Source: Pelagomonas calceolata (Eukaryota). Taken from it: a stretch of DNA of 64,000 nucleotides. How positions within the stretch are numbered: the stretch's first letter is position 1; each line of letters opens with the position of its first letter. Positions 5,405 to 61,455 of this stretch are shown in pieces. Under the pieces are notes generated by a model. It was not told the origin of the DNA. It made no database searches and was given only the letters and a program-made list of their open reading frames with translations. The position numbers and the translations under genes were made by a program. The stretch spans positions 4,774,001-4,838,000 of the forward strand of contig CAKKNE010000003.1 of NCBI GenBank assembly GCA_918797485.1, read 5' to 3'.

Positions 5405-7859
5405 ATGGGCAAGACCATCAAGGTGTGCGTTCGGACGCGGCCGACGGCCCAGTTCGCGGCGGGCCACATCGCCATCGACGCGGACCGCAACGCCATCACG
5501 ATCGACAAGGGCCACGAGGCGAGTCCCGACGGCGTCTGCAACAACGCCCAGTCGCGCTTCGACTTCCGGTTCCACCACGTGCTCCACAACGCGAGCCAGG
5601 ACACGGTCTACGAGACGCTCGCGCGCGACGTCGTGCAGGACGTGGTGGACGGCATCAACGGCACGATCATGACGTACGGCCAGACGGGCTCGGGCAAGAC
5701 CTTCACGATGCTCGGCGACATGAACAACTACGTCCACCGCGGCGTCGCGCCGCGGGCCCTCGCGCACGTCTTCGCCGACGTGGCCGCGCGCATCGAGACG
5801 CAGTACACGGTCGTGTGCACGTACATGGAGATCTACAACGAGCGCATCTTCGACCTGCTCAAGGCGCTCGGCGACGAGGACGCGCGGAACGACTACCAGA
5901 TCGTCGAGGAGAAGGGGGGGCGGGGCGTGTTCGTGCGGGGCCTGACGGAGGTCGAGGTCGCGTCCGAGGCCGAGGCGCTCAACCTGCTCTACTCGGGCCA
6001 GCTCGCGCGGACGACGGCGCAGCACAAGCTGAACCGCAACTCGAACCGGTCGCACTCCATCTTCACCGTGACGCTGCGGCAGCAGAGCCGGTCGGGCGTG
6101 AGCGAGAAGGTCGTGACGTCCAAGCTCAATTTGGTGGACCTGGCGGGCTCGGAGCGCCTCAAGAAGACCATGGAGGGCGCCGACGGAACGGCGTACGACG
6201 TCGACGCGACGATGAAGAAGGAGTCCATGTACATCAACCAGAGCCTCACGTACCTGGAGCAGTGCGTCGTCGGCCTCTCGAAGCGCGCCCCGCAGCACGT
6301 CGCCTACCGCCAGACGAAGCTGACGGGCGTCCTGAAGGACTCGCTCGGCGGGAACTGCGCCACGCTGCTCTTCGCGTGCATGTGGGCCGAGTCGGCGCAC
6401 CTCGAGGAGACCGTGTCCACGCTGCGCCTGGCGCAGCGCATGATGCGCGTCCAGAACACGGCCGAGAAGGTCCAGACCACGGACCCCGCGCGCCTCGCAC
6501 GGAAGCAGGAGCGGCTCATCCGCGACCTGCGGCAGGAACTGCTGATGCACGACGCGCTGGCGGACCGCAGCGGCGTCAAGTACGACCCGTACACGCCGGA
6601 GGAGCAGGCCATCATCGCGGCCCAGTGCAGGCGCTACGCGGACGCGGACGAGGCGCGCGCCGCGGACCTGCTCGAGTTCGACAGCGTGCGGCAGATGCGG
6701 GAGATGTGCGCGCAGTTCAAGAAGTTGTTGCGGGACGCCGAGGCCAAGGCCGTGCGCGCGCGGACGGCGATGACGTCGGCGGGCGGCGTGCCGACCGGGC
6801 TCTTCGCGGGCGACGAGGTGGGCATGGGCGAGGACGGCGGCGACGCCGAGGCGGCCGGCGTCGGCGACGCCGAGGCGGGCCGCGGCCTGTCCCTGGGCCG
6901 CGCGCCGGACGCGTCGCGGCCCCTCGTCGTCGTGGACGCGCGGTCGCCCGAGCGCGCGTCGCTCGCCGAGCGGAGCGTCGGCCTCGGCGCCGAGCGGCGC
7001 GGAAAAATAAATCGAACGTTCGCAGCCCCCTCCCATCGGGGCGCCGTGTGCGGCCGGCGCGTCGCTCGTTCGTGTGCGGCCGGCGCGTCGCTCGTTTCTT
7101 CAAAGGCCGCCGCCGCGTTCCGCCCGTCCGAGGAGAAGCCGCGGCCGAGCGCGGTTCCACGCAGGCGCCGAGTCGCCGTCCGTCGACGCGTTCTCGGCCG
7201 AACTCGCGGGGAGCCCCCTGTCCAAAATGGGCGACGGGGACATCGTCAACGACCGCAGCCGCGCGTTCGAGCACTACAAGCGCCAGGCGGGACGCGCGAC
7301 GCACGAGAAGCTCCAGCGCGCCAAGCGCGCGCGGTCCGACGCCAAGTCCCAAATCCGCGACGCCGCGGCGCGCGCGGACGCGGCGAAGCGCGACATCGCG
7401 GACGTCGACGAGAGGCTCGAGGAGACGCGCCGGCGCCGCCGCGAGAAGATCCGGGCGGCGGGGCGCGACGACGACGACGTCGTCGACGACGAGGAGTTCG
7501 TCTTGATGCGCGCGGGCCGCGACGCGAAGCGGGACTACCGGGACGCGCACGGCGCGTGGCTCGCGGCGCGGCGCGACCACGCGGCGGCGGCGCTGGACGT
7601 CGACGCGACGAAGGCCCAACTCGTCGACGACTTCCAGCAGTTCTTCGCGCAGCTGCAGCGGCGCGCCGGCCTGGCGGAGGAGGCGGGCCCCGGCGACAAG
7701 CTCGACGACCAGGAGGCCTTCGACAAGCTCGAGATGGAGCGCGTCGCCGCCCAGGACCCCGACGCGCTCGCGTTCTTCCGGGCGCAGAAGACGCGGCGCG
7801 CGACCGCCACGCAGAATCGGTCGCACCTCCGGCAGCTCCACCGCAACAAGCGGACGTAG
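5405..7859 (+). CDS. KIF9: Kinesin-9 family (KIF9-like) motor; exons 5405-6986 and 7165-7859
   Basis: VCVRTRP, YGQTGSGKTFTM P-loop, NSNRSHSIF, LVDLAGSER and a KIF9-like tail (LRQELLMHDALA..YDPYT). A phase-1 intron joins the motor frame to the coiled-coil ORF 7074-7859. Confidence 0.85.
6987..7164 (+). mobile_element. Introner element, 178-nt GC-AG intron
   Basis: Perfect 8-bp TSD gcgccgag at 6987-6994 and 7165-7172. Element ends are cggcgcggaa...ttccacgcag. Splicing from the TSD GC to the terminal AG restores the frame exactly. Contains an internal ~25-bp tandem duplication (gtgtgcggccggcgcgtcgctcgtt). Confidence 0.88.
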
Positions 7860-8218
7860 GCCCTCTTCCCTCCCCCAAACTCCCGTTAGCTATCCTGACC
7901 GTGACTGAGCAAGGAGCTAAGCTCTTACTAGTAGGGCTAAGGCCGGCGGGAGCCTGAGGTTTTTCAACTTTAAAACCTTTTTGAAAACTTGAACCAGACG
8001 GATTCAAGTTCGGTCCAGAATACTAGTGCCAGTGAATATCAGACCGTAATTCCCGCTCTGCCACCGAGCGCCTTCGAGCGGTGAACTCCACGTAGGAGGT
8101 GCTCTACGACGAGTCGTCGCGGCGCGCCTACGACGCCGCGTCCGAGTCCGGGCTCGACTAGATAATAAGTCGACTCGGATAGTGACTCCAGACGAGTCAA
8201 ATATATCTATATGTCTAC

Positions 8219-11200
8219 TTACTTTTCCACGAGAAGCGCCTCGAGCCGCGCGACGCGCCGTTCGAGGCCGTCGTGCTTCGCCGCGAGCGCCGCGAGCGCC
8301 GCCGCGAGGACGGGCGCGGCGCGGCCGTACGCGACGTGCTTGAAGCCGTCGGCGTCGTCGTAGACGAGCGACGGGAACGCCTCCTCGACGCGCTGGGCCA
8401 CGAAGCCGACGTCGCGGCGCGCGGGGAAGTTCCGCGCCGGGAACTCGTCCCTTTTGTAGGAGAACGCGTACGCGCCGAGGCTCCCGTTGCGGAGCGCGCC
8501 GAGGCACGCGGCGCCATCCAATACCGCCAGGTCGCGCTTGAAGCGCGCGTCGGACGAGTCGATGTACGCGCCGGAGCCCATGACCGTCCCCCCGACCACG
8601 ACCGACCCTCCGACGAAGGCGTCGCTCTTCACGTCCAGCGCGCCGCCCACGTTGACGTTCCGGGGCGCGTGCACGGCCGCGTCCGCGTCCACGTAAAGGC
8701 CGTCCTCGGCCTCGAGCGCGCCGCCGTCGCCCGCGACGACGAGCGCGCGCCGACTCGCGTCGAGGGACCCGACCAGCACGACGTCGGCGGCGACGAACTC
8801 CAGGCCCGCGGCGCCGCCGCCCTCGAACTGCCCGTCGCGGATGACGTGGCCGCGCGCGTCGACGTCGCCCGCGAGCGCGCCGACGGCGAGCCGCGGGATG
8901 GCGACGGCGTGGTCGGCGCCGGCCGCGCACCAGGCCTCCGCGGCAACCAGGGCCCCGTCTTCCCCGAAGACGGCCGCGGCGCCGCGCGCGGGCGCGTCGA
9001 CGTACGTCAGCTCCTCGACGGCGAGCTTCTCGAGCCCCTCGACCGAGCCGCCCTCGATCCTCGCGTTCTTCAGGCGCGCGTTGTTCGCGAAGTCGAGGTC
9101 CCCCACGATGGTCGCGGCGCCGAGACGTTCGACGTGCAGCGTGCGGTCGCGGTAGTACAGCTCGGGCGTCGCGCCGAGCGCGCCGCCCGGCCCGACCAGG
9201 ACCGGGCGCTCGAAGCCCTCCGGGGGATTGCTCTTGGTCCCGGGGGCGTGGTCCAGCCGCAGCACCTGCGCGGCGACCTGGGCCAGGCCCGTCGCGGAGC
9301 CGCCCTCGATGCGCGCGTCCTTGATCGCGTGGCCGCCCATGTGCAGGGGCGCGTCGACCGAGGTCGTGACCATGAGCCGCCTGCGTGCAAATGAGCCAGT
9401 GAGCCGCATGCTGACTCGCGGGCGGACGCACGGCAGTCGACATGTCGCGACGAGGGCGCGCAGCGAACGTCGAGGCGTACGCCCATGCGAAGGCGCCGCC
9501 GCGAAAGTTGACGCCCGCACCGGGAGCCGCCCGACGCGCAGCCGCAGCGACGGCGACTCTTTGGGACCGCCCTTGACCCGGTCGACGGAGATAAAGTCCG
9601 CGTCGGCGTCGAGGAACCCCTTGGGGCCGTAGAAGACGACGCCGCTTTGTTGGGAGTCGCCGGTCCGGCTCGACAGCCGGCCCGCGCGGACGGCGTGCGG
9701 CCCGACGTCCAAGTCGGCCGCCGCGTCGAGCCGCGAAACGCCGACGAACTCCGTCACCGACGACCGCGTCACCGCCGCGCCGGCCGCTGCGACCGCGCCG
9801 GCCGCGTCGCCGCCGATCGCCGCCCAGCGGCGATCGCCGCCCTGGTAGAAGACGCGCGTGCTCCCCGCGGGGACGACGTGGCCGTCGAGCGTCGCCGCGT
9901 CGCCGTCCGAGTTCCGCACGACGAGCTGCCGCGCGTCCGGCCCGCCGTCGCCCTCGACCGACATCGCGTTGCCGCTGCCCCGCCGCCCGTCCTCCAGGAT
10001 CTCGACGTACGACGCGCCGGCCGGGACGGCCACGCGCGCCCCGGCCTTCGCCTCCGTCCGCTGGAGCCTCACCGCGCCGCCGACCGCCAGGTCGCCGCCG
10101 AAGACCGCGCCGCCGGCCGACCGGACGCCGCCCCGGGCGACGAGCGCGCCGGACGCGTCGACGCTGAAGACCGACTGGCCCTTGACGACGCCATCGACGA
10201 GGCGCGCCGCGCCGCGCGCGAACGGCGTCGGCGGAGCCAGCGCCGGCGCCTCGAGCGTCAGCACGCTGCCGCCGAACTGCGCGTGCGTCGCCGAGGCCCG
10301 GAGGGGCGCGCCGCCGGCGGCCCTCGAGGCCGCCTCGACGCCGCCGTCCTCGAGCGCGAGCCCGCCCCTGAGCGTCAAGGCGCCGCTCCGGACCTCGAGG
10401 CCGCCGTCGACGCGGAGCCCGCCGGCGCCCACGTCCACGCCGCCGCCGTGGACGCGGAGCCCGCCCGCCGTGACGCGCACGCCGCCCGCGAGCACGTCGA
10501 GGGCGCCGTCGCCGCGGACCGCGAAGACCTCGTTCGTCCCGCGGAACGCCGCGACGATGGGGCCGTCGCCGTCGCGCCGCTCGAGCCGGAGCGCCGGCGC
10601 GGCGCCGGCGCCGCGCGCCGTCGCGCCGGCCGTCGCGACGAGCGCGTCGGCCGTCGCGACGCCGCCCTCGAGCGTCACGCCGGCCGCGGCGACCGCGCCG
10701 GCGACCGTGAGCGAGCCGAACGACCCCGGCCCCTCGCTCGCGAGGCCGGCCCGGCCGACCGCGACCGGCTGGTCTTTGGCGACGCGCAGCGCGGGCGCGT
10801 CCGCCGGGCCCGCGACCAGGAGGTCGCCCTTTGCGCTCGCGAACGCGGCGCCGCCCGAGAACGTCGCCGGGCCGCGCGCGTCGAGCGCGCCGGCGACGGC
10901 CACGCCGCCGTCGAACGCCGCGGCCCCGGCCGCGCGGATGTGCCCGTCGCCGCGCACGGCGAGCACGTCGCCGCCCCGCCCGCCGGCGCCCACGCGCAGG
11001 TAGTGGAAGTCCGGCGACGCCGCGCGCTTCGCCTCCAGGCCCAAAATCGTGCCCGAGTAGAACGGGCCTTCACTCCGATACAATTGAAGCGTGTCCGCGT
11101 CCTTGTTGTCGTCGCAGGCGTCCCGCCGCCAGCCCGCGCGGCACCGGCACTTTCCCGTCGCCAGGTCGCAGTCGCCGTGGTTCGAGCACGGCGCGTGCTC

Positions 11201-11764
11201 CCGGACGTTGGACGCGACCGCGTCCTTCAAGGTGCACTGTGGCACGTCCCAGGCGTCGCCCGGGAGCGTGGACTCGCACTCGAACGTCCCGAGGGCGGGG
11301 TTGCCGCCGTGCGGCGCGTGCGCGTCGACCGGCGCCGGCGCCCACTCGTCGAAGGTGACGAGCCACCCGTCGGTCGTCTGGGAGCAGGACGCCTTCTGGA
11401 CCGTCGGGAGCGAGCTGATCGCGCGGCCGCACGTCGCGGCGTCGAGCACCGCCGGCAGCAGCACGCTCTCGCCGAGGAACCCGAAGCGCAGCCGGCCGTC
11501 GACCTCGCCGCCCGTCGGCGCCGTGACGGTCAGCGCGATCGCGCGCGACACCTGGTTCTGCGTCAGCGGGTCGTCGCCGCGCGGGCAGTGGATCTGCTCG
11601 CAGGCGGCGCCCGTCACGCCCGGCTGGCAGATGCAGAACGAGGTGGAGAGGGTGGCGTCGGGCGCCGAGCAGTAGCCCCGGAAGTTGCAGTGGGCCGGGC
11701 AGGCCGCGCGCACGGCCGCGCCGAGGCCGACGGCGACGAAGGCGAAGGCGCGGCGCCGCCCCAT
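8219..11764 (-). CDS. Secreted EGF-like/mastigoneme-like protein with Gly-rich beta repeats and a C-terminal peptidase S74 (intramolecular chaperone) domain; intron 9381-9530
   Basis: Signal peptide MGRRRAFAFVAVGLGAAVRA; EGF motifs (CPAHCNFRGYC, CPRGDDPL, CSNHGDCDLATGKCRC); SDARFKRDL...GFVAQRVEEAFPSLV...VAY followed by a terminal coiled coil. Confidence 0.8.
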   Translation of the reverse strand: MGRRRAFAFVAVGLGAAVRAACPAHCNFRGYCSAPDATLSTSFCICQPGVTGAACEQIHCPRGDDPLTQNQVSRAIALTVTAPTGGEVDGRLRFGFLGESVLLPAVLDAATCGRAISSLPTVQKASCSQTTDGWLVTFDEWAPAPVDAHAPHGGNPALGTFECESTLPGDAWDVPQCTLKDAVASNVREHAPCSNHGDCDLATGKCRCRAGWRRDACDDNKDADTLQLYRSEGPFYSGTILGLEAKRAASPDFHYLRVGAGGRGGDVLAVRGDGHIRAAGAAAFDGGVAVAGALDARGPATFSGGAAFASAKGDLLVAGPADAPALRVAKDQPVAVGRAGLASEGPGSFGSLTVAGAVAAAGVTLEGGVATADALVATAGATARGAGAAPALRLERRDGDGPIVAAFRGTNEVFAVRGDGALDVLAGGVRVTAGGLRVHGGGVDVGAGGLRVDGGLEVRSGALTLRGGLALEDGGVEAASRAAGGAPLRASATHAQFGGSVLTLEAPALAPPTPFARGAARLVDGVVKGQSVFSVDASGALVARGGVRSAGGAVFGGDLAVGGAVRLQRTEAKAGARVAVPAGASYVEILEDGRRGSGNAMSVEGDGGPDARQLVVRNSDGDAATLDGHVVPAGSTRVFYQGGDRRWAAIGGDAAGAVAAAGAAVTRSSVTEFVGVSRLDAAADLDVGPHAVRAGRLSSRTGDSQQSGVVFYGPKGFLDADADFISVDRVKGGPKESPSLRLRVGRLPVRASTFAAAPSHGRTPRRSLRALVATCRLPCVRPRVSMRLTGSFARRRLMVTTSVDAPLHMGGHAIKDARIEGGSATGLAQVAAQVLRLDHAPGTKSNPPEGFERPVLVGPGGALGATPELYYRDRTLHVERLGAATIVGDLDFANNARLKNARIEGGSVEGLEKLAVEELTYVDAPARGAAAVFGEDGALVAAEAWCAAGADHAVAIPRLAVGALAGDVDARGHVIRDGQFEGGGAAGLEFVAADVVLVGSLDASRRALVVAGDGGALEAEDGLYVDADAAVHAPRNVNVGGALDVKSDAFVGGSVVVGGTVMGSGAYIDSSDARFKRDLAVLDGAACLGALRNGSLGAYAFSYKRDEFPARNFPARRDVGFVAQRVEEAFPSLVYDDADGFKHVAYGRAAPVLAAALAALAAKHDGLERRVARLEALLVEK
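9381..9530 (-). mobile_element. Introner element, 150-nt in-frame GC-AG intron
   Basis: Minus strand reads TSD gcggctcc, then cggtgcgggcgtcaac...ctcactggctcatttgcacgcag, then TSD gcggctca (7/8). Length is a multiple of 3, so it is hidden inside the ORF. Confidence 0.85.
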
Positions 11765-12125: not shown

Positions 12126-13095
12126 ATGGAACGCCCCTCGACACAGAGCCGGGCGCGGACGCCCCCGAATCCGGAGAACCTCGACGCTTTTAGCGGCAGG
12201 CGACCAGTGTTCAGCTTGTCTCCAAACCGACCTCACTCACCCGGTCGATACGCGCGCAGGCGGGTGCGGACCTCCGTCCTTCAGCAGCTTCTCCCACATC
12301 GGCGAGGAGGTCCAAAGCTTGACCTTTGCCGTGGGGCTCCGCGAAGATGCGGCGAATGCCGAGTACTACGTGAAGAAGATCTTACCGATGTCGTTCTACG
12401 AGCCCGGGAAGCCCGTCGAGAAGCGGGCTCGGGCACCCCCGAAGGACGCGCCGCCCGTCGAGGCGCTGGACGTGCCCGAGCTCGTGGAGATGCGGCAGCG
12501 CCTCCGAGACGTCCTGCGGGGCTGCGAGAAGATGGAGCGCGAGGAAAAGCAGTGCGCCGCCGAGCTGCAGGCCGCGACGGACCGGCTCGCCACGGTCGAG
12601 AAGCGATCCGCGCAGCTCGACGACCAGCTCGACCAGTACGACGAGCAGCTAGCCGAGGAGCGGAACCGGACCCTGGCGGCGTCGATGGACGCGGAGCAGA
12701 CGCGGGCCCAGCACGCGGAGCTGCTCGAGCAAGTTGAGCGCGGCGAGAGGGCGGTCGCGCGGCTCGAGGCCGAGCTCGCCGACAAGGAGGCGCAGCTCCG
12801 GGCCCTCGAGGCGTGCTCGGACCTCGAGCTCGTCTTCGGGCGGCGCGACGACGAGCCGGACGGCGCGGAGCTCGTCCTGCGCGACGAGGTCTCCGGGCTC
12901 GACGCCTGGCGGCAGCCGCCGGCGAAGCTCGCGAAGCGGCACCTCCAGATGGCGGCGAACGCGTCGCGCCCTCCCGCGGCGGCCGGCGGCGCGACGTACG
13001 CGGCCCGGATGACCTCATTCAAGCGCAGGCTCCGCGCCGGCCGGCGGCCCCGCGGCGCCGAGGCGGCCGGCTCCGTCGCGTCCGGGGCCGCGTAA
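12126..13095 (+). CDS. Coiled-coil protein of unknown function; tentative first exon 12126-12147 and GC-AG intron 12148-12259 (alternative start ATG 12388)
   Basis: Strong GC3 bias and a heptad-rich E/L/A/Q sequence. Acceptor-like ctcac...gcgcgcag ends at 12259. The putative donor gccgggcgcggac resembles the exon start gcgggtgcggac. Confidence 0.55.
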
Positions 13096-15082: not shown

Positions 15083-16615
15083 ATGAAGTTCGGCGCGGAC
15101 CTCAAAAACAGCGTCGTGCCGGAGTGGGCGCCGGGCTACATCGCCTACGACGCGCTCAAGGCGCAGATCAAGGCCATCAGCGGCGCCGAGGCGGACGAGC
15201 GGGACGCGCTCGAGGAGACCTTCTTCGCGACGCTGGAGGAGGAGCTGGAGAAGGTGAACCGGTTCTACCTGCAGAAGATCGGCGAGTTCGACGCGGCGCT
15301 CGCCGCGCTCGAGGCGCGCAAGCCGCGGAGCGCGTCGGGCGACGCGCTCGGCACGCCCGCGACGTCGGACCACCGGCGCAACGCCATCAACTTGCACGCC
15401 CAGATCGGGCAGCTGCAGGCGTTCGTCTGGCTGAACACGCAGGGCTTCGAGAAGATCGTGAAGAAGTACGACAAGTTCTCCGGCCTGCGCCACACGCCGC
15501 AGGCCAAGGCCCCGGACTTCGAGGCGCGGCTCCGGGGCGAGGTCTTCAAGTCCGAGCGGCTGGACGCGTGCCTGGAACGGTTCAAGATGGCGCGCGTCGT
15601 GGACAGCGAGACGCCGCACCATCTCGAGATGAAGCTCGTGTCGGGGTCCGCGAACAAGCCCCTCGCCGAGGAGATCGCGGCGCGGCTGGGCGTGCCCCTC
15701 TCGCCGGCGAAGGTGCGCCGCTTCAACGACGGCGAGGTCAACATCCAGCTCTGCGACAGCGTGCGCGGCGCGAACGTCTACATCCTGCAGCCGACGTGCC
15801 CCCCGGTGAACGACCACCTGGTCGAGCTGCTCCTCCTGGTGTCGGCGGCGCGGCGCGCGTCGGCGGCCACCGTGACCGCGGTGGTGCCGTACTACGGGTA
15901 CGCGCGCCAGGACCGCAAGGACCGGAGCCGCGTGCCCATCTCGGCGGCCGACGTCGCGCGGATGATGGAGGCCATGGGCGTCGACCGCGTCGTGTGCGTG
16001 GACCTGCACTGCGCCCAGATCCAGGGCTTCTTCGGGCCCCGGACGCCCGTGGACAACCTGTTCGCCGCGCCGATCGCCGTGACCTATTTCAACATGAAGG
16101 ACCTGGTCAAGCCCGTCGTGGTCAGCCCGGACGCGGGCGGCGTCGCGCGCGCCAAGGCGTTCATGGAGGGCTTCGGCCGCCTGCCGGACCCGCCGCAGGT
16201 CTCGCTCGCCGTCATCCTGAAGCAGCGGGCGGAGGCGGGCGTCGTCGGCACGATGCACCTCGTCGGCTCGGTGGAGGGCTGCGACTGCGTCATCGTCGAC
16301 GACATGATCGACACGGCGGGCACGCTGACCGCGGCCGCGAACGAGCTGCGCGCGTTCGGCGCGCGGCGCGTCTTCGCGTTCGCGACGCACGGCCTCTTCA
16401 GCGGGCCCGCGGCGGACCGCATCGAGCAGTGCGTGCTCGAGGAGTGCGTGGTGGCGAACACGGTGCCGCTAGCCGCGGCCGTGCGCGAGAAGACGCGCAA
16501 GATCCGCCAGGTCAGCGTCGGCAAGCTCGTCGAGGGCGCCATCCGCGGCATCCAGTGCGGCACGTCCGTGAGCGCCCTCTTCACCCAGGACATGGCGGCG
16601 GACCTCCTATCCTAG
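15083..16615 (+). CDS. SPX domain - ribose-phosphate pyrophosphokinase (PRPP synthetase) fusion
   Basis: SPX part: MKFG...PEW..GYIAYDALK, ELEKVNRFY, LNTQGFEKIVKKYDK. PRPS part: RFNDGE, VPYYGYARQDRK, DLHCAQIQGFF, VSPDAGG, VDDMIDTAGT, ATHGLFS. Confidence 0.92.
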   Translation: MKFGADLKNSVVPEWAPGYIAYDALKAQIKAISGAEADERDALEETFFATLEEELEKVNRFYLQKIGEFDAALAALEARKPRSASGDALGTPATSDHRRNAINLHAQIGQLQAFVWLNTQGFEKIVKKYDKFSGLRHTPQAKAPDFEARLRGEVFKSERLDACLERFKMARVVDSETPHHLEMKLVSGSANKPLAEEIAARLGVPLSPAKVRRFNDGEVNIQLCDSVRGANVYILQPTCPPVNDHLVELLLLVSAARRASAATVTAVVPYYGYARQDRKDRSRVPISAADVARMMEAMGVDRVVCVDLHCAQIQGFFGPRTPVDNLFAAPIAVTYFNMKDLVKPVVVSPDAGGVARAKAFMEGFGRLPDPPQVSLAVILKQRAEAGVVGTMHLVGSVEGCDCVIVDDMIDTAGTLTAAANELRAFGARRVFAFATHGLFSGPAADRIEQCVLEECVVANTVPLAAAVREKTRKIRQVSVGKLVEGAIRGIQCGTSVSALFTQDMAADLLS

Positions 16616-25273: not shown

Positions 25274-26235
25274 CGAACTGCGCTCGGTGTCACCACACCC
25301 CCTTCTTCTTGGCTCTGTCCTCAGCTGCAGGAAATATCCACGTGCGGGTTTGATTCAGTGTAGAAATCAAATTATTTTATGAATAGGCCTGGGATATTTC
25401 TGCTTCGTCAGATTGAAGTTCAACGTAAAGTTCAACTAGAGGGAGGGGGGGTAAATTTAGCAAAACCCGTCACCTAGGTGTTCTATATGGGGGGGGAAGC
25501 CAGACCCGGATTGCTCCATAGCGAATATAACCGGAGCCCAGTGGTCCAAGTTGCCAAGTGAAACTGGAGCAAAAAAACAATTTCGGGTCAAAAAAACACA
25601 TGCAGCTGCAGGTGCAGCTGCGGGTCCCTGCAAGTCCCATAATTACGAAAGGCATCAGGGGTTTGGTGTCTAGGCAAGTGCCCAGGATGCCCGCGTGCCG
25701 AGTTACGAGCGGATTAAACAATCCCGTTGGCCAAAGTCCAGGTCAATCAAATGATCTCCTAGTTTATTTAGACTACAAAAACCGCCGCTGGTACTGTAGG
25801 TTACATGCTAGGCCCATGGGGCTCGCTCCTAAGCGGCCTTCTTCGGCCCGAACGGCGTCCAGAGCCGCCACTAAGTCATCACCTTTGCTGCAGCACCCTT
25901 GAAGACCGTTGTAGCCACCTCGCTGAACGCATGCAGCTGCAGCCGACGCGTCGCTAAATCTACTAAACGGGTTTTTGATGACTTTGGAGCTCTCCCTCTC
26001 ATCGTCATCGACCTCCGTACGGACCCCCGACCTCGGGCGGGGCTACCGACCCCTCTCGGAGGCTTCATGCGAAAAAGCCGGTAATTTCGGATCGATTAAG
26101 ACTCGTTCAGTAGTACCTGGCGTCCCCCCCTTTTCCACATCCGAGTCCGAGTCGGGGCCGCGATCCACTGGCAGTGGCAGAGATTTTCTAGCGAGTTAAA
26201 AACCGGGGCGGAAGACAGGAAGCGTCCATCCGCGC

Positions 26236-29358: not shown

Positions 29359-30127
29359 GCTGTGCGGCAATCAAACATAGGAATAGGAAAACCTAAGATA
29401 ATTAATACCTCTCCATACATAAAAAACTTCAAGTTGAATAGAATGTTGCTTATAAACCCCCCTACCAGGGGTCAGTTTCGATGCCCAAGGCAGCCCGGAG
29501 GGTGGCATAGGAGGGGGAGGAGTGTACTCGATGGGCCCCACCCCGGCCCCTCCCCTCGTCCGTGCAGTCCCCTTCATTTTCGAGGTAATTAAATAAATAA
29601 ATAAATAAATAATTATTTCACCGGCCGGCGTAACCGTCACGGTGACTACGGTAACCTGCGCGACTGCCCTTTGCACTGGCAACCTAGTTGACACCAAGGG
29701 CCGGATAATAGTACACCGACCCGGGAAAGATATGCAAGTACCAGACTGTCTTTCCCGAATGTATGATGTAGAGGACGGTGGACAAGAACCCACCGAACCC
29801 AACAATCTGATCTTGAACCTGACTGGAGATTTACAAGAGCCGCCAAAGATGCCTACCCTTGTACATTGACAGCAGAGACGATCTTGAGATCTATAAGTGG
29901 AAAAAGACAAAAACCTTAGAAGAAATGACCATGAGGGTCCACAGGTCCGAATTGCGATTCTACCCGTTCAGTTTGACGAATAAGAACGAGATTCCAGTGA
30001 AAATCGTTAAAGAATTGGTTACTGATGGATATGCGGTGATGTTGATTTCAACGGTAAATTAGCTGAAGACCCGGCTTGAGTTCCAGGAAGGGGGGAGTGA
30101 GGTGAAAACTCCCCTAGATATATATCC

Positions 30128-30335
30128 GCAACGCCATAGCCCCCTATCGCCGGATCTATGGCTACATTACTCAGGCTCTCGCCTATCAGCACGCTATATC
30201 AGCCGGCACGTGCCCGAGGCTGATATTTCCCTATATCCCGTATCTTCTTACTTATCCAAGTGGATCAAGCCCGGCGCTAAGTAGGCGCCGTAAAAACACC
30301 GGGGTGAACCTAAAGTAAGTTCACTTCACCAGGGT
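30128..30335 (+). repeat. Dispersed repeat A (~200 bp), probable DNA-transposon end
   Basis: Near-identical reverse complement at ~49465-49656. Both copies terminate at ccc(t/c)(g/a)gtgaagtgaac. Confidence 0.85.
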
Positions 30336-32892: not shown

Positions 32893-35307
32893 ATGCGTCG
32901 CTTGCTGGCCAGCCTCGGCCTCGTCGCCACCCGCGCGGAGACGCCCCCCCTCGCGCCGAATACCGTCCGCCTCGACCGGGTTTGCTTCGAGGCGGACCGA
33001 GGCGCCGTTCGCCTCGCCCTCTACGACGGCAGCGATAAGAGCGTGAACCAGCTCTGCGCGTCGCTCACGCGCTGCGAGGTCGCCCAGATTCACGACGCGT
33101 GCGCCCGCGGTGCGAACGCGACGGAGCTCGCGCGACTCTACGCAGACGTGCGTGTCGTCGAGCGCGTCGGTGCGCCATATCCGCCGCGCGGCGCGCGACA
33201 TGAACGCGCCGGCGCGTTTGTCATTTACGGCGACAGCGCTTCCCACAACATCCACTCGCAGCTCACGTCGGCGTTCGAACAGCGCCTCCTGCTCGAACGC
33301 AGCGGCGGCACGGGGCTCGATGTCGTCGTCGAGAAGGTGTTCGCCTGGGGACGCGGCGGTAAGAACAATGTTGGAGCTATCAAGGCTGCACTCCAGGACC
33401 CGACGCGCGACTGGAGTCGCGGCGTTGCGGCGGCCGCGTTCGACGGCGTCGACGTCCTGGCTTTGACAAAGTGCGGCGATGTCGGAGCCGCATGGGGCAG
33501 CTGCGACGACTCCGTCCCCGCGGCGCAGTCGGCGATGAAAAGTGTGCCGTTGTGCGTCGACGCGCTCTTTGTCGCAGCGCCGTTGACGGCAATCGGCGGC
33601 TTTCCCATTCGCCCATCGACGGGCGACGCGCTTCGCGAGCTCCGCGAGCGAACCAAGCGCCATTATGGTATCGCGTCGCGCGCGGAGCGAGCGGGCGATA
33701 GCAACGCGTCGACGCGGGTCACGCTCTTCACGCGTAACGACGCGGGGGCGCGCAAGCTCATTTACGCGCCGGAGGTGCTGACCGAGATGCGCGTCACGCG
33801 GGTCGTCGATACCCTTGTTTTGCCGCTCGCGGAGCAGATCCGCCTCTTCGACGAGGCCGACGTCTTCGTCGCCCCACATGGAAACAACAATGTCAATTCG
33901 CTCTGGATGCGACCCGGCTCGCTCTACGTCGAAGTCCGGCCGTCGTGCGCCGAGATGTGCGTGCTCGGCTGCGACAAGCGCTTCGCGCGCGCGCCCGTCG
34001 CCGGAAACGTGACATTCCTGGATCTCTTCGACGCGCCTCTCGGTGTGGCGTGCGGCATCGCCGGAACCCCTTTCGGTGCCGTGCTTCACCAGCGCACGGG
34101 CGTCCGCTTCCACGTCGTCTCGGCCTGCGTCGGCGGCAATCGCTGCATGCAGCGCGGCGCGGGGCCCGCAAAATTCTACCTCCCGGGTGGCCGCGTGGAC
34201 GATTCGCACAAAAGTTGGAAATACAACTGGAACCCGCAAGTTATTCAGGTCACGGCGGAGGTCGCCGCCGCGGTCCGCGCGGCAATCGACGCGTCTGACG
34301 ACGTCGATGCGCATGCACGCGCCATGCCGGCATCTGCGTCGTCGGTCCGCGCGACTCCCTTTGCCGTGACCTGTGGCCCCGCTGTCACGCCGCGCGCGCG
34401 AGCGGTTTTGCCGTCGCCGGTCAGCGCTCCCGCCGATGCGGTCGGTGCAGCGCAGCCGCGACCGCCGACGACCCCCGCCCCCGCCAGCGCCGTCGCGCGC
34501 GGCGAATTTGACTTGTACGCTCCCAAGTCGGCGCTCAAGGTCAACACCCAGTTTGCGGGCGAGGGTCTTTACGCGCTCGGCGACATCGTGCGTATCAACG
34601 ACGGTGGGCAGCGTTCGCGCGCCACGGGACACGCCGGCACGATCGGAGAGTTCTATGTTCGCCACGTGCCCGCGGGCGCGGCCCCAAACGCGAGCGTCCT
34701 GGCGGCGGCCGTCGACGCGGTCTGTCCCACGCTCGTGCCGGCGAACGAGAGCGCGCTGGCCGAAGTGGTTCTCCACGTTCGCGTGGGCGATGTGCTGTGT
34801 GTACGACCCAAGAATCCGCACCTCCACGTGCAGCGCCAGCCGCCACCCGTTGCGGAGGTCGCGCGCATCGTCCACGCAGTTGCTGGGACTTGTGTGGAAA
34901 TCAACCGGTACAGCATATCCTTCAAAGAGCTGCTCTCGGCCAATACTTTTTCGGCTACCTTTTGGACAGAGAGGGAGAGCGGGGAGGTCGTCAAGCATGT
35001 ACGAAGGGACCGTAAAATGTTGATTCCCATACAGGCGGGGACCGCGCCTTTGCGCATCATCTTTGGCTTCCACTTCAAAGTCTGCGAGGCCGAGTCCTAC
35101 GCGTACCTCCGCGCGCTCGCCACCGCGACGGGCGCGAAGCTCGCGGCAGAGGCGCACCCCGACGTCCATTTTTGTCATGCTGTCTACGCGGCGCTCTTCA
35201 TCCAGGGCAAGGGCGGCTACAGTCGGCTCGTCCGCGTCGTCCGGGACGCGAAACGGAAGCCGTCCGTTTTTGTAGCTGCCCTGGCTGATTTTGGGGAATC
35301 CTCCTAG
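32893..35307 (+). CDS. Secreted two-domain glycosyltransferase-like protein (GT61-like + HxRxGD fucosyltransferase-like); intron 34882-35034
   Basis: Signal peptide; PLAEQIRLFDEADVFVAPHGNNNVNSLWMRPGSLYVEV (GT61 signature); VLHVRVGDV and PDVHFC...FIQGKGGYSRL. Confidence 0.7.
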   Translation: MRRLLASLGLVATRAETPPLAPNTVRLDRVCFEADRGAVRLALYDGSDKSVNQLCASLTRCEVAQIHDACARGANATELARLYADVRVVERVGAPYPPRGARHERAGAFVIYGDSASHNIHSQLTSAFEQRLLLERSGGTGLDVVVEKVFAWGRGGKNNVGAIKAALQDPTRDWSRGVAAAAFDGVDVLALTKCGDVGAAWGSCDDSVPAAQSAMKSVPLCVDALFVAAPLTAIGGFPIRPSTGDALRELRERTKRHYGIASRAERAGDSNASTRVTLFTRNDAGARKLIYAPEVLTEMRVTRVVDTLVLPLAEQIRLFDEADVFVAPHGNNNVNSLWMRPGSLYVEVRPSCAEMCVLGCDKRFARAPVAGNVTFLDLFDAPLGVACGIAGTPFGAVLHQRTGVRFHVVSACVGGNRCMQRGAGPAKFYLPGGRVDDSHKSWKYNWNPQVIQVTAEVAAAVRAAIDASDDVDAHARAMPASASSVRATPFAVTCGPAVTPRARAVLPSPVSAPADAVGAAQPRPPTTPAPASAVARGEFDLYAPKSALKVNTQFAGEGLYALGDIVRINDGGQRSRATGHAGTIGEFYVRHVPAGAAPNASVLAAAVDAVCPTLVPANESALAEVVLHVRVGDVLCVRPKNPHLHVQRQPPPVAEVARIVHAVAGTCVEINRYSISFKELLSANTFSATFWTERESGEVVKHVRRDRKMLIPIQAGTAPLRIIFGFHFKVCEAESYAYLRALATATGAKLAAEAHPDVHFCHAVYAALFIQGKGGYSRLVRVVRDAKRKPSVFVAALADFGESS
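34882..35034 (+). mobile_element. Introner element, 153-nt in-frame GC-AG intron
   Basis: TSD gctgggac (34882-34889) / gcggggac (35035-35042). TIRs ttgtgtggaaatcaac...gttgattcccatacag. Locally AT-rich. Confidence 0.88.
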
Positions 35308-36283: not shown

Positions 36284-39139
36284 ATGGGCACCGCAAGCCC
36301 TCCCGGCAAGTCAAGGACATTTCAAAGGTTATGCGTGCGCGTCGCGCTGCCTCTTGCGTTGGCCCGGCGCATGGGCGTGACCGAAGCACTAGAGCAACAA
36401 AGATTCCGCGCGTACAACCGGACGACCCTGCTGGCGGGCGTGGCCGAAGCTGCGTCCGCGAGTGGCGACGACGTCAAGAGATTCTGGCCGTTCGCGTTGC
36501 GCCACTTCGTGACGCCCGTCGCGGGCTACTACCTGTGCGATCGCTACGTCGGCGATGAGGTCGAGCGGTACGGATTGCCGCCGCCCGTCGGCGCGCGCCT
36601 CGAGCTCATGGCCGCCGCGGCTGCGGCCGTCGCTCCCTTCGCGTCCGTCTACGTGCAGGCGCGGTACGTCGAAGCCTTCGCAGCGAGCGTGGTTCCCCAC
36701 CTCCGCGCGCCCATCGTCCTCGTCACGGGCTCGGAGGAGCTGCCCCAGGTCGAGGCGTCGAATTGGACCGAGGCACTGCTTGAGGACCGGAGGATCGCGT
36801 TCTGGTTCTCGCAGAACCCTGTCTACTCCGGGCGTGCCCGCTACGGCGGGTTCCCCTACGGCGTGCGCACGGAGACGGTCCTCGGGTTCGCAAAGGCGCT
36901 GGTACGCTCGGGGGACGGGCCCCGGAGGCCCGGTCTCCAGCTGACGTACACGTCGCGGCATCGCATGAACGGTTGGATGCGAGCGGGCCTGCCCAACGGC
37001 CCGCGGCTCCCGGTGCACGCCTTCTACGACCTGCTGGCGACGGCTTCATTCGTGCTCTCGCCCTGCGGCGACCGCTGCGACACGTACCGTACGTACGAGG
37101 CGATTGGCCTCGGCGCCGTGCCGGTTGTAAACGCGCCGGAAGCCCTCTACAGCCCGGGCCTGCTCGCGGGCAGCGCCGTCTTTTTCGATTCGGCGCACCC
37201 CGAGCGCGCGGAGGCGATGCGCCGCGGCGGCACTCTCCCACCGTACGCGGAGCCGGACCGCGGCCTCGTCCAGCTCGACGCCTGGCGCGAGCGCATCGCC
37301 GCCGCGGCCGCGGCCGCGCGGGCGGGCGCCGCCGTCCCGGCGCCGGCGCCAGCCGCCGCCGCGCCGGCACCGCCCCGCCGCGTGCCGTACAAGGCGGAGC
37401 TCGGCTGGTGGCACTTCGAGCACCCGAGGCGCCGGCTCGGGGGTACGGGATCGTGCTACCCGGCGTGCTGGGGCCTTGGGAACGAGGTCGTCTACCAGTG
37501 CAAGTTCGGACGCATCGGCTGCCAGAACCCGCGCAACTGGCCCAGCATCGACGAGTACGCGGCGGGCTGGCGGCTCCTGGCGCCGTTTATGAAGCGTTTC
37601 CTCGCATCGCAGAATGCGACGGCCGACGCCACGTACGCGCGGACCGCGGTCGTCCACTTCCGGTGCAGCGACGTGCCGTTTTCGCGGCACGACGAGTACT
37701 TCCTACTCCCGCGGCGGTACTTCGACCGTGTGCGCGCATGGCTTGGGGCTCGACGAAGCGACTGGGACTCGGTCGTCATCTTGAGCTGCCCCGAGCTGCC
37801 GGCGGCGGGCGCGCCCGCGTCGCCGCTCGCGGCCGCGCGATGCGGCGACTTCGTCGACGTGATCGCAGGGTGGCTCGGTGGCGCGGCGACGATCTGCGAG
37901 CGCGATTCGGCGGTCGCGCTCGGCGCCATGCTCGGTGCCGCGGCCCTCGTGTCGACGGGCGGGTCCTTCTCGTTCGCCGCGGGCGTTGCGCGCGGCGACG
38001 GCGCGTTTTTCGCTCCCTCGCTCGCCGGCGTCGGAGACTTCCCAGAGGCCGCGCGCCTCGCGGCCGCGGTGCCCTGGGCCTCGACGGGCACCCACGATCG
38101 CCTCGGCCACGGCTGCGTGGACGACTACGCGACGTTTGACTACGCGGCAGCGCCCGCCGACGGCTGCGCGTCGGCGAGCGACCGGGGCTGGATGCCATCG
38201 CGCAAGTACCGCTGTGCGCTGACGGAGGAGGCACGCGTGGTCGCGCGTCAGGGATCGGCCCCGGCCCCGGCCCCGGCGGCCACTCCGGCCGCGCCCGCGC
38301 CGCCCCCCGGGTCGCGCGTCGTCGCGACTGGCGCGTCCAAGAGCCACGCGTGGCACCTCGCCGAGTTCGCGAAGCAGTTCCACTCGCTGCGGAGCGGCGT
38401 CCACCTCGTCGTCTACGACCTGGGTCTCGGGCCCACGGCCGGTGGCGCGCGGCGCGCGGTCGAGGCGGGGGGCGGCGAGTTCCGGACCATGCCCTGGGAC
38501 GCGCTGCCGGCGTGGATGGCGGTCGAGGGCGGCCCGCGCTACGCGGGCGAGTACGCCTTCAAGCCCTGGATCGTGGCGCGCCTCCTCGACGAGTTCGAGA
38601 GCGTGCTGTGGCTCGACGCCGGGAACCGCGTCGGCGACGCCGCCGCGCTCGACGCCGTCTTTGCCAACATCACGGCGCGCGGGCTCTGGACGACGTCGTC
38701 GGGCCCGTCGCTGGCGCGCTGGGTGCACCCCGGCATGGCGGCGCGCCTCGGTGCATCGGCGTTCGTCCGCGACCGCGGCGACGCCCTCATGTGCAACGGC
38801 GCCTTCGTGGGCTTTTCGCGCGCGTCGCCGACGTACGAGCAGGTTTTTAGGCCGTGGTTCGCTTGCTCCATGGACCTCGGCTGCCTCGCGCCGCCTGGCG
38901 CGGACCGCGCGAACCATAGGCAGGACCAGTCGGCCCTCTCGGTCCTCGCCTACCAGCACGGCCTCGGTGACCTCTGCAACCGTACCGCCACGCCGCTCGT
39001 TGGCAAACGCCAGCCCATCTGGGGGCACTTCTTCGACAAAGAATTTGACCGCTGGCCCCCGGCAAAAAAGGCCGCCTACCTCGATCGCTCTGCAAAGGAC
39101 CCGTACTGCGCCAGGTTCGGCTGCCGGCGGCGTCGGTAA
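36284..39139 (+). CDS. Multidomain glycosyltransferase-like protein (exostosin/GT47-like + HxRxxD fucosyltransferase-like + DUF1647-like)
   Basis: FVLSPCGDRCDTYRTYEAIGLGAVPVV; VVHFRCSDVPF...SFSFAAG; VVYDLGL...YAFKPWIV...VLWLDAG...NHRQDQSALSVL. Domains are separated by Pro/Ala linkers. Start codon uncertain. Confidence 0.72.
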   Translation: MGTASPPGKSRTFQRLCVRVALPLALARRMGVTEALEQQRFRAYNRTTLLAGVAEAASASGDDVKRFWPFALRHFVTPVAGYYLCDRYVGDEVERYGLPPPVGARLELMAAAAAAVAPFASVYVQARYVEAFAASVVPHLRAPIVLVTGSEELPQVEASNWTEALLEDRRIAFWFSQNPVYSGRARYGGFPYGVRTETVLGFAKALVRSGDGPRRPGLQLTYTSRHRMNGWMRAGLPNGPRLPVHAFYDLLATASFVLSPCGDRCDTYRTYEAIGLGAVPVVNAPEALYSPGLLAGSAVFFDSAHPERAEAMRRGGTLPPYAEPDRGLVQLDAWRERIAAAAAAARAGAAVPAPAPAAAAPAPPRRVPYKAELGWWHFEHPRRRLGGTGSCYPACWGLGNEVVYQCKFGRIGCQNPRNWPSIDEYAAGWRLLAPFMKRFLASQNATADATYARTAVVHFRCSDVPFSRHDEYFLLPRRYFDRVRAWLGARRSDWDSVVILSCPELPAAGAPASPLAAARCGDFVDVIAGWLGGAATICERDSAVALGAMLGAAALVSTGGSFSFAAGVARGDGAFFAPSLAGVGDFPEAARLAAAVPWASTGTHDRLGHGCVDDYATFDYAAAPADGCASASDRGWMPSRKYRCALTEEARVVARQGSAPAPAPAATPAAPAPPPGSRVVATGASKSHAWHLAEFAKQFHSLRSGVHLVVYDLGLGPTAGGARRAVEAGGGEFRTMPWDALPAWMAVEGGPRYAGEYAFKPWIVARLLDEFESVLWLDAGNRVGDAAALDAVFANITARGLWTTSSGPSLARWVHPGMAARLGASAFVRDRGDALMCNGAFVGFSRASPTYEQVFRPWFACSMDLGCLAPPGADRANHRQDQSALSVLAYQHGLGDLCNRTATPLVGKRQPIWGHFFDKEFDRWPPAKKAAYLDRSAKDPYCARFGCRRRR

Positions 39140-49400: not shown

Positions 49401-49464
49401 TTCTGGGTGCCCAGGGTATTCTCACTTGCCAGTGGGCTTTGTAGGGTCGTTTCCCGCTGTTCCC

Positions 49465-49656
49465 CCCAGTGAAGTGAACTTACTTTAGGTTCACCCCGGT
49501 GTTTTTACGGCGCCTACTTAGCGCCGGGCTTGATCCACTTGGATAAGTAGAAAGATACGGGATATAGGGAAATATCAGCTCCGAGCCGTCGGCTGACGCG
49601 CGTGCTGATAGGCGAGTAATGTAGCCCAGATCCGGCGATAGGGGCTATGGCGTTGC
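49465..49656 (-). repeat. Dispersed repeat A, inverted copy
   Basis: Reverse complement of 30128-30335. Confidence 0.85.
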
Positions 49657-49973
49657 AGACGATGCCCAGGGAGTTTTGCCTCGCGTTAGTAAAACGCCGA
49701 AACTCAAATACAATACGACCAAAATCCGTGGTTCTTTGCGGTCGATTCTCGTCACGGGCCCCTTTCGTAAGCCACAAACTCGTGACAAAGGCCAATTCGT
49801 CATCCAAAGAGCTCTAGGGCAGCCTGAGTTGAAAATCCCACTAATGATTTGGGTTCCGGGCCCTCAGGCTGGCCGTAGCGCAGCAAATAGGGCTTAATAC
49901 GCCGGCCTCTACTAGTCAAATCTGGAAAATCGCCGAGTAGAAAATGTGGCTACAACATCTGGTTTTCAAGTTC

Positions 49974-51783
49974 CTACCCGTACCCGTCTTCGCGAGGGAT
50001 CCCGCAGTGGCGTGCGCGCGTTGCGCGAGGTTTCAGCACGCCGGTTGCGGGGTCGACGCAGCCCGGCGAATAGCGCATACTCCTGACAAACTTGGGAAGT
50101 ACTTCGCGCGCGAGGTCGCTTTCGGCCGCCGGCCTATACGGAGCCGCATCGCACAGGCGCGCCTCGGCGGCAAGCGGCAGCAGAAGAAATTCTAGCAGGT
50201 AAAGATACGCACCACCGCCAAGATGAATATCAAGAGGCCGCCAGCCGCCATTGCAGTGTCGCCTCGTTTCGTCGGCGTCGGCGCGTGGTACCTTGGCATA
50301 CGACCGGTGGGAAAACCGCCTGCGTTTTAATGATCCACCAGTGAGGTATACTCCCCTGTGGAAACTCCTCACAGTTATCCAAACTGGTAGCGTCCATTTC
50401 GAACATCCACGCAAGGTCACCAGGGACTGTGAACTTGATTTCTGCACTGGAAACTGCGTCGAAAGGCCACAGGCATCGACGGCCGCGATCTGTGCTAGGG
50501 GTGCGGTAGAGATTAGCCCTGTGTAGAAATGAACCAGTGAGTTAGGAATTGGCAAAAACGTAGCTGCTTTGAGTTTTGGTAGAAGCGATGGCGGTGGCGA
50601 CCTTCGAGGGCGTTGCATGGGCCCATTCCCCACCAAGAACACTCACTCCCATTCAAAAGGCACCTTGACTGTCGATTCCTGCACCGGCCGTGTCGTCGGA
50701 CCTCCGGAGGCAGAAGGGCGATTGTCTCTCTTATGTGTTCGTACGTCGCCGTCTCGGACCGCCAGCTACTTCTAAACTCGTTCTGAGTAGGAGCAAGCGG
50801 TTTGAGCCATCCGTAAAACGGATTATGCGTTGGCGTGACGACGACCAAATGCGTGCCGTTGGTAGCGAGATGGGGCGCCGTCACATCCAACCACGCGTCG
50901 AATGCCCTGGATACGCCACCGTCGTCGTGGTCCTTGTACCCCAGGCCCGAGTCCACGGCGAGCAGGTCCGGTGCCAAGCCCATTTCGACCGCCTTCTGTA
51001 GGAAGTCGCGCGTCTGTGTCCACGCGGCACCGGCCATGTATTGTGCAATACAGACATCACCTCTCTTCAGACTGCTCCGAAGCCGGTCGTCGGCGAATTC
51101 CAAGCGGTCGGCCGGTGGCGCGGTCCACGCGACGCATCCCTCACCGGGCCTTGCGTCCGCATTTAGGGGCGCCGTGGAAAATGGCTCCAGCGACACAGCG
51201 GGACAGCAAACAACATGGTCCATATGATATGTCTTGCCGTTGAATTGCGTCCCGCGCAACACGGCTGCACTGCCGCGCGCCAGGGTCTGCACCTGTGGAA
51301 ATCAAATTTCAGGCTCACCACGCCGTCGGTGCGATGTTGTCTCCGTTATTGCGTCTGCTCGATGGCGTGGAGGATCGCAAGGTTCCGCAAATAAGTAGCG
51401 GTAACTCCCTGGTTGATTCCCACACCGGCCTGCACGAGGCGCTGCCAGGCGATGCGCATGAACGAGTCACCGACGAACGCAACGAGCGCTCCTTTTCTCG
51501 CGCCGCGCCTTGCCACCTTAGCCAGCGCCGCAACCGCATTCGGCGCCGCGAGCGGCGTATTGCAGGCAGTTTCTGGTGTCGTGCCGTTCGCGGCTCGGAC
51601 ATCATCCCAATACCGAAAAATAGCATCGAACGACGCGTCCTTCCCGTCCGTGTGATCAACGTAAAATTTCGCATCAGGCAGCCGAAATGCGACGCTGCGC
51701 GGCACGCGAAGGTTGTCATAGTCGCAGGGGAGGCACGTCTCGTCTGCTCGCGACGCCGCTAGAAGGACGAGCAGCGTCCGCAT
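49974..51783 (-). CDS. Secreted SGNH/GDS(L)-like protein (polysaccharide O-acyltransferase/esterase-like) with three Introner-type introns
   Basis: MRTLLVLLAASRA leader, VAFVGDSFMR, DSGLGY and a C-terminal PLDIH. Three ORF pieces are joined by introns 51293-51435, ~50519-50688 (boundaries uncertain) and 50320-50457. Confidence 0.65.
50320..50457 (-). mobile_element. Introner element, 138-nt in-frame GC-AG intron
   Basis: Minus strand reads TSD gcagtttc, then cagtgcagaaatcaa...ctcactggtggatcattaaaacgcag, then gcggtttt (6/8). Confidence 0.72.
50519..50686 (-). mobile_element. Introner-family element without a recognisable TSD
   Basis: Minus-strand ends are cggtgcaggaatcgac...ctaactcactggttcatttctacacag. 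It sits at the frame change between ORFs 50513-51292 and 49974-50642. Confidence 0.7.
51293..51435 (-). mobile_element. Introner element, 143-nt GT-AG intron
   Basis: Minus strand reads TSD gtgcaggc, then cggtgtgggaatcaa...ttgatttccacag, then gtgcagac (7/8). Splicing gives in-frame QRL|VQTL. Confidence 0.9.

Positions 51784-61424: not shown

Positions 61425-61455
<31 letters not shown>

What the first reader, a model, noticed from the sequence alone, without database searches (positions are those of the whole stretch)
6987..51435. Nearly every detectable intron is an Introner: the 8-bp TSD supplies the donor and the TIR supplies the acceptor
Seen: introns at 6987-7164, 9381-9530, 34882-35034, 50320-50457 and 51293-51435 (probably also 1529-1623 and 12148-12259) start with a copy of the first 8 nt of the next exon (GC or GT donor). 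They continue with a TIR like C(A/G)GTGTGGAAATCAA and end ...CACAG/CGCAG. Splicing restores the pre-insertion frame exactly. Established: this mechanism was described for Introner elements in the pelagophyte Aureococcus. Inference: the 8-bp TSD and CAGTG start suggest a hAT-derived MITE whose terminal CTG became CAG. Interiors differ greatly, implying several subfamilies or an old burst.
Basis: partly seen in the sequence, partly recalled or inferred. Interest (0 to 1): 0.72.

Follow-up and report, generated by a model that had tools for sequence, protein, structure and literature searches.

The report
Transposon-made introns in a Pelagomonas alga
Six of the eight introns found here are worn copies of one short mobile DNA element and are cut out of the RNA, with the cut's start likely supplied by the eight letters duplicated on landing and its end by the element itself, a route of intron gain already described in these algae.

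Summary
The five main introns are real: RNA reads skip exactly these lengths. Each carries a 15-bp inverted end starting at intron base 9. Reads reveal a sixth copy, 50519-50694, with a GA donor and no intact duplication. The 8-nt duplication is exact in only 1 of 5 (6-7/8 in the rest). The two 'probable' introns lack the inverted end, and the 12148 donor is wrong (reads use 12196). So 6 of 8, not nearly all.

The host is Pelagomonas calceolata or a very close relative. In 109 metagenome copies the duplication is 8 bp (56 exact), and 66 of 66 oriented copies start GT/GC. Both ends read CTG...CAG, so either orientation gives an acceptor.

The mechanism is published for Aureococcus, and 956 putative introners are published for this species. 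Additions: a likely presence/absence polymorphism at 34882, a hAT-like target bias, and the GA donor. No transposase was found. The scan had no look-alike stretch; it has introner notes on other genomes.

The parts
6987..7164 (+). Introner intron, GC..AG, phase 1, in a KIF6/9-like kinesin gene (5405-7859). Duplication 6987-6994 / 7165-7172 (8/8); element 6995-7164, ends 9/15 and 9/15; subfamily not assignable
9381..9530 (-). Introner intron, GC..AG, phase 2, 150 nt and stop-free in frame, in an EGF / Peptidase_S74-domain gene (8219-11764). Duplication 9523-9530 / 9373-9380 (7/8); element 9381-9522, CCAGTG end last
34882..35034 (+). Introner intron, GC..AG, phase 0, 153 nt and stop-free in frame, subfamily A, in a GT61-domain gene (32893-35307). 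Duplication 34882-34889 / 35035-35042 (7/8); ends 14/15 and 13/15; likely polymorphic
50320..50457 (-). Introner intron, GC..AG, phase 2, 138 nt and stop-free in frame; third intron of an unnamed 450-aa gene (49974-51783). Duplication 50450-50457 / 50312-50319 (6/8); element 50320-50449, CCAGTG end last
50519..50694 (-). Element 50519-50686 (ends 10/15, 13/15), subfamily B, CCAGTG end last; duplication not intact (3/8)
51293..51435 (-). Introner intron, GT..AG, phase 0, first intron of the same gene; subfamily B (profile E 8e-25). Duplication 51428-51435 / 51285-51292 (7/8); 3' end motif 2 nt short
12196..12259 (+). 64-nt GC..AG coding intron in a coiled-coil gene (12126-13095); corrected donor; no 5' end motif, not filed as an Introner
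1529..1623 (+). 95-nt GT..AG intron in VPS15 (1244-4998), inferred from the frame; 7/8 repeat but no end motifs; origin open
25356..25370 (+). Single intergenic end motif starting CAG (13/15); no partner of 11/15 or better nearby
29360..29374 (+). Single intergenic end motif (13/15); no partner found; may be chance or a remnant

Best explanation
Six introns in this window are decayed copies of a short element with 15-bp inverted ends that RNA reads show spliced out, and they likely arose when a DNA transposase inserted the element into exons and duplicated 8 bp. Shown: the intron starts at the first base of the upstream duplicate (GT or GC, once GA) and ends at the CAG that closes the element, so one duplicate stays in the mRNA and the protein lines up with intron-free relatives without a gap. 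Shown in relatives: both ends read CTGTGTGGAAATCAA, so an acceptor exists in either orientation, and both orientations are used. Inferred: the mobiliser was an Ac-type hAT transposase whose target bias (T at 2, A at 7) raised the share of landings that begin with GT; the burst is old, copies shrank from about 203 bp by separate deletions, and only the splice signals are kept by selection. Inferred: the copy at 34882 is not fixed in wild populations.
For: RNA joints for 6 of 6. End motif at offset 8 in 6 of 8 introns; blind scan 5 vs 0.07 expected. Metagenome copies: of 121 loci 3 duplicates and 9 with short flanks or altered ends were dropped; in the other 109 the 8-mers match exactly in 56 (mean identity 0.85 vs 0.37 for random pairs) and no other length from 2 to 12 exceeds chance. 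In the 66 of 109 that a codon model orients with confidence, 45 start GT and 21 GC (background 0.17 per site), orientations 36 and 30. The A of the acceptor AG is changed in 0 of 94, the mirror base at the 5' end in 8 of 94 (Fisher p 0.007). Position 7 of the exon copy is A in 24 of 63 vs 11.8 expected from phase- and donor-matched flanks (p 2e-4; one of six patterns tested). Spliced protein is gap-free against homologues at 9381, 6987 and 34882; three 450-aa database proteins carry all three junctions of the 51783 gene. Kinesin: 8 of 8 members of a 97%-identical sister cluster are intron-free on contigs up to 24.5 kb, 36 of 37 window-type proteins read into the intron.
Against: 2 of 8 introns lack the end motifs. 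50519 has no intact duplication and a GA donor. Only 51293 has an interior that clearly matches the family; 6987 rests on the duplication and 9/15 ends. 8 of 109 metagenome copies match at 3/8 or less (two are 1-nt shifts). No transposase domain among 104 window frames scanned and no whole genome to search. The metagenome pattern selected intact ends and introns of at most about 203 nt, and the host of those contigs was not determined. Absence of the introns in relatives rests on predicted proteins whose source (DNA or RNA) was not seen. Phase shows no bias beyond donor availability (p 0.40).
Confidence: 0.9

Rival explanations
1. The introns are old ordinary introns; the similar ends are the species' splice-site consensus and the 8-nt repeats are chance in GC-rich DNA.
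For: 3' ends such as CGCAG are shared with the two introns that lack the motif; interiors of 5 of 6 do not match the family above controls; a 5/8 or better repeat occurs by chance at 15%.
Against: The 5' motif sits at offset 8, outside any donor consensus, in 6 of 6; 51293 matches the family at E 8e-25; the family duplication is sharply 8 bp; close relatives appear to lack two of the introns. This reading is the more likely one for 12196 and about even for 1529.
Confidence: 0.03
2. The family spread as introns through RNA (reverse splicing or intron copying), not by a DNA transposase.
For: No transposase found; all 66 oriented copies are splice-ready.
Against: Insertion in both orientations, site-specific 8-bp duplications and perfect inverted ends are not expected from reverse splicing (established knowledge).
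Confidence: 0.04
3. A DNA transposon, but of another superfamily with 8-bp duplications (for example P-like or Merlin-like; recalled), not hAT. This rivals only the hAT step.
For: Ends begin CTG, not CAG, in 115 of 121; no transposase seen.
Against: 15-bp ends, 8-bp duplication and A at position 7 fit the Ac-type pattern nTnnnnAn; one metagenome copy and one solo window motif begin CAG.
Confidence: 0.25

Closest known systems
Putative introner elements of Pelagomonas calceolata (Guerin et al. 2022, PMC9481584: passages, supplementary file 2 part 1 and searches of the supplements; its preprint: passages)
   Same: Same species label; GT and GC donors, AG acceptor, conserved TIR; 956 putative elements; length peak near 210 bp, and subfamily A reconstructs to 203 + 8 = 211 nt. 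Very likely the same family.
   Different: The text read gives no duplication analysis, no orientation, no GA donor and no polymorphism; the TIR logo is a picture I could not see, so sequence identity is untested. Window copies are shorter (138-178 nt) and worn, and may fall below that paper's repeat-overlap rule.
Introner elements of Aureococcus anophagefferens (Huff, Zilberman and Roy 2016: not held, not read; known through passages of bioRxiv 10.1101/2020.10.14.339549, PMC7789003 and PMC9860276, and from recall)
   Same: One splice site in the element, the other from the duplication; 8-nt cut; introns in either orientation; about 200 nt with TSD and TIR (family 4, 1744 copies).
   Different: Other genus. 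Donors in that family are 96% GT, 2.8% GC, 0.3% GA; here 21 of 66 GC in metagenome copies and 4 GC, 1 GT, 1 GA in the window. Copies here are older and deleted.
Dinoflagellate introners of Symbiodinium and Polarella (bioRxiv 10.1101/2020.10.14.339549: passages)
   Same: Polarella classes 6, 8 and 10 have 8-nt duplications, either orientation, and GA/GC/GT donors.
   Different: Unrelated host; GA donors are common there and one case here.
hAT MITEs (PMC3517528 and PMC2803484: passages)
   Same: 8-bp duplication, ends of 5-27 bp, no coding capacity; Ac-type target nTnnnnAn partly matched.
   Different: Ends begin CTG; no cognate transposase identified.

Membership tests
Aureococcus-type Introner | Removed from mRNA as an intron | tested here: met
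   RNA joints for 6 of 6 motif-bearing introns
Aureococcus-type Introner | Repeated family at unrelated sites | tested here: met
   118 distinct sites among 121 metagenome loci; window copy 51293 E 8e-25, 34882 E 5e-5, 50519 E 1e-3; 6987, 9381 and 50320 by ends only
Aureococcus-type Introner | 8-bp target-site duplication | tested here: met
   56 of 109 exact, other lengths at chance; window 5 of 6 at 6/8 or better, 50519 fails with 3/8
Aureococcus-type Introner | Terminal inverted repeats that carry the acceptor AG | tested here: met
   15-bp ends; 94 of 94 oriented copies end in AG (copies were pre-filtered for a final G on one strand)
Aureococcus-type Introner | Donor taken from the start of the upstream duplicate | tested here: met
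   66 of 66 GT/GC; window offset 8 in 6 of 6, one with GA
Aureococcus-type Introner | Intron formed in either orientation | tested here: met
   36 vs 30; window 2 forward, 3 reverse, 1 unassigned
Aureococcus-type Introner | No change in mRNA length against the empty site | tested here: met
   Protein level, no gap at the junction for 6987, 9381, 34882; no distant homologue for the 51783 gene
Aureococcus-type Introner | Intron absent at the orthologous site in DNA | tested here: inconclusive
   Indirect only: intron-free proteins on long contigs or tied to one haplotype; DNA not seen
Aureococcus-type Introner | Insertion in nucleosome linkers | not testable with these tools
   No chromatin data
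Aureococcus-type Introner (introns 1529 and 12196) | End motif at offset 8 | tested here: not met
   2 of 15 in both; not filed as members
hAT MITE | 8-bp duplication, ends of 5-27 bp, under 4 kb (PMC3517528) | tested here: met
hAT MITE, Ac type | Target pattern nTnnnnAn (PMC2803484) | tested here: inconclusive
   A at 7 in 24 of 63 vs 11.8 expected; T at 2 is confounded with donor selection
hAT MITE, Buster type | Target pattern nnnTAnnn (PMC3517528) | tested here: not met
   T at 4 in 10 of 66, A at 5 in 14 of 66
hAT MITE | Ends beginning CAG (as in Mar, PMC3517528; general rule recalled) | tested here: not met
   CTG in 115 of 121, CAG in 1
hAT MITE | Autonomous hAT transposase between the same ends | not testable with these tools
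   No genome held; none among 104 window frames; 21-nt end pattern gave 0 viral loci and 1 short, cut contig among prokaryote genomes

The most novel reading that the evidence does not exclude
The element is splice-ready by design: a palindromic hAT target bias supplies a GT donor on either strand while symmetric CTG...CAG ends supply the acceptor, and some insertions (34882) still segregate as present or absent in wild Pelagomonas populations, with the spliceosome even accepting a GA donor once the duplicate has decayed. Intron gain could then be measured as an allele-frequency process in one of the most abundant ocean algae.
Probability: 0.4. Interest if true: 0.55.

Novelty: already known. 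Interest (0 to 1): 0.32.

Why it matters
The mechanism is a textbook case of intron gain by transposons and is reported for this algal class and, in outline, for this species, so a specialist would not be surprised. The value is practical. Worn GC- and GA-donor copies are missed: one public model invents another intron at 6987 (P0099) and one reads through 34882 (P0175), so published counts are likely too low. A segregating copy would let selection on a new intron be tested with existing ocean metagenomes. The end sequence and target bias give a handle to find the missing transposase.

Tried and rejected
Whole genome: not held. Huff 2016: not held under three ids. End patterns in viral contigs: 0; in prokaryote genome contigs: 1 cut copy at the end of a 2.7-kb contig, likely stray eukaryote DNA. 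Generic repeat search was swamped by GC-rich repeats and did not list the elements. RNA folding of 5 introns: no better than shuffles (z -0.01 to -0.86), so no structural role is claimed. Donor 12148: rejected by reads. Idea that 50320 and 50519 lie in the 3' UTR: rejected, the frame runs through both. Phase bias: not seen. Length-mod-3 bias in 109 copies: not seen (p 0.54). Read-through proteins cannot tell GA from GT or GC at 50694 because all give Arg. Run X20 held the 51293 intron but no informative empty site. Spliced VPS15 homologues were not found. Exon 1 of VPS15 alone gave no PDB hit of note. PMC11282704 (passages) adds nothing on pelagophytes. Paper searches for prior reports; none listed a Pelagomonas introner polymorphism, but subscription papers are not covered and Figure S3 and Data 3 of PMC9481584 were not seen.
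Full report
Observation. The five main segments lie at the stated coordinates. Raw poly-A reads of one sample skip 178, 150, 153, 138 and 143 nt there, and contigs of two other samples show the first two. Because the flanks repeat, reads leave 1-9 letters of slack; the GY..AG ends fix the cut. The first 8 intron letters match the next exon at 8, 7, 7, 6 and 7 of 8 (chance for 7 or better 0.9%, for 6 or better 4%). The 1529-1623 intron was not among the joints shown, at low depth, but the VPS15 kinase needs it: exon 1 has 95 codons and exon 2 matches solved VPS15 from residue 96 at its sixth residue. Reads add a sixth element, 50519-50694 on the minus strand, GA..AG, 214 reads. RNA covered 40 of 64 kb and joint tables were cut, so the census of eight is a minimum.

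Host. A protein labelled Pelagomonas calceolata is 100% identical over the aligned 72% of the kinesin query; Aureococcus proteins are 51-58%. I take the host to be that species or a very close relative.

The family. It selects intact ends and introns up to about 203 nt; the hosts of these contigs were not determined. After dropping 3 duplicate sites and 9 with short flanks or altered ends, 109 remain. The 8-mers on both sides are identical in 56 and 85% alike on average against 37% for random pairs; lengths 2-7 and 9-12 sit at chance. The ends are CTGTGTGGAAATCAA on both sides: CTG in 115 of 121 left ends and 109 of 121 right ends, CAG in one. A codon model trained on 13 window genes oriented 66 of 109 with confidence; all 66 begin GT (45) or GC (21), in both element orientations (36 and 30). 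Changes in the second base of the end fall only on the 5' side (8 of 94 vs 0 of 94, p 0.007), as expected if the acceptor is under selection. Subterminal sequence splits the copies into A (69), B (29) and 11 others; 28 of 29 B interiors hit an A interior, best hits are 90% alike at the median, and 65 of 69 A copies have their own gap pattern. The union of A is 203 bp, an intron of 211 nt, which fits the 210-bp peak published for this species.

Window copies. Six of eight introns have their best end match at offset 8 (9-14 of 15). 51293 is clear subfamily B, 34882 has an A end, 50519 a B end, 9381 and 50320 have the CCAGTG end last, 6987 cannot be assigned. 1529 and 12196 score 2 of 15 and are not filed as members; 1529 keeps a 7/8 repeat and a weak interior hit (3 of 300 controls), and a 94%-identical relative seems to hold an intron at the same site (P0230), so it may be a much older copy or an ordinary intron.

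Empty sites. At 9381 the spliced protein aligns without a gap to homologues of 37-45% identity, which have nothing in place of the 50 inserted residues. For the kinesin, 36 of 37 window-type database proteins read into the intron, while 8 of 8 members of a 97%-identical sister cluster are contiguous, on contigs up to 24.5 kb. For the 34882 gene, of 14 listed members that span the site (cluster of 394), 11 read through the intron and have RIVHA, 3 lack it and have RVVSA, with 8-20 other differences against 5-14 among intron-bearing ones. Spliced RNA of the window type would be RIVHA, so this points to an intron-free allele in the same gene pool. The DNA was not seen, so both cases are inference.

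Mechanism. Shown: cut sites, ends, duplication, both orientations, restored frames. Inferred: insertion by a DNA transposase; Ac-type hAT identity from the 8-bp duplication, 15-bp ends and A at position 7 (24 of 63 vs 11.8; AC at 7-8 in 11 vs 4.1, p 0.002), a position that splicing does not need; against it, ends begin CTG and no transposase was found among 104 window frames. The GA donor is read from the window DNA; no difference at that base was among the 40 of 173 rows shown, and junction counts along the gene (203, 91, 54 and 295, 123, 57 from the 3' end) show no dip at this intron, but retention was not measured.

Known work. PMC9481584 (passages, supplement file 2 part 1) reports 956 putative elements with GT and GC donors, AG acceptor and TIR in this species. 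bioRxiv 10.1101/2020.10.14.339549 (passages) describes the Aureococcus pattern as one site carried, one recruited, 8-nt cut, either orientation. PMC9860276 (passages, supplement rows) lists Aureococcus, Pelagococcus and Pelagomonas families with donor shares. Huff 2016 was not held and is recalled only. The finding is therefore a correct re-detection of a known system, with small additions: the symmetric end, the target bias, one GA donor, a likely polymorphism and two faulty public gene models.

Noticed in passing
window 9381-9530, 34882-35034, 50320-50457: All three introns of 3n length are stop-free in frame (shuffle chances 0.50, 0.06, 0.08), while 15 of 15 oriented 3n metagenome copies hold a stop. 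Post hoc and small; may mean weak GC donors are tolerated through read-through.
   Followed up: partly
window 6995, 9522, 50686, 51427 (5' end motifs): Four of six window copies begin CGG where intact copies begin CTG (CGG in 2 of 94). An older subfamily or a shared pressure; unexplained.
   Followed up: partly
L008 and L022 (element at about 610-780 and 875-1015): Elements with a GT donor at offset 8 and a good frame but no duplicate in the exon (1/8). Possibly insertion at the donor of an older intron that was later lost; L022 looks like an ARF gene (recalled motif).
   Followed up: partly
window 6987-7164 and 34882-35034: Public models miss both GC-donor introns: P0099 uses another intron and keeps most of this one, P0175 reads through.
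   Followed up: yes
window 15083-16615: Single-exon fusion of an SPX domain with a PRPP synthetase, expressed: a possible phosphate-sensing enzyme.
   Followed up: no
window 8219-11764: Expressed gene that joins EGF domains to a C-terminal Peptidase_S74 (phage endosialidase chaperone-like) domain; many homologues.
   Followed up: partly
window 58600-59490 and 61140-61460: Two related fragments (84% over 126 nt) ending in (TTTA)n tails, retroposon-like; no Pfam hit.
   Followed up: partly
window 30212-30334 and 49464-49586: Inverted 123-nt repeat, 94% alike, 19 kb apart, in intergenic DNA whose RNA reads differ from the window, so a dispersed repeat.
   Followed up: no
window 50000-52000 and 36000-37300: Strong opposite-strand transcription over coding genes; unspliced antisense RNA may explain read-through proteins in transcriptome sets.
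   Followed up: no
L122 2653-2675: The element end occurs at the edge of a 2.7-kb contig filed under a proteobacterial MAG, likely algal contamination.
   Followed up: partly
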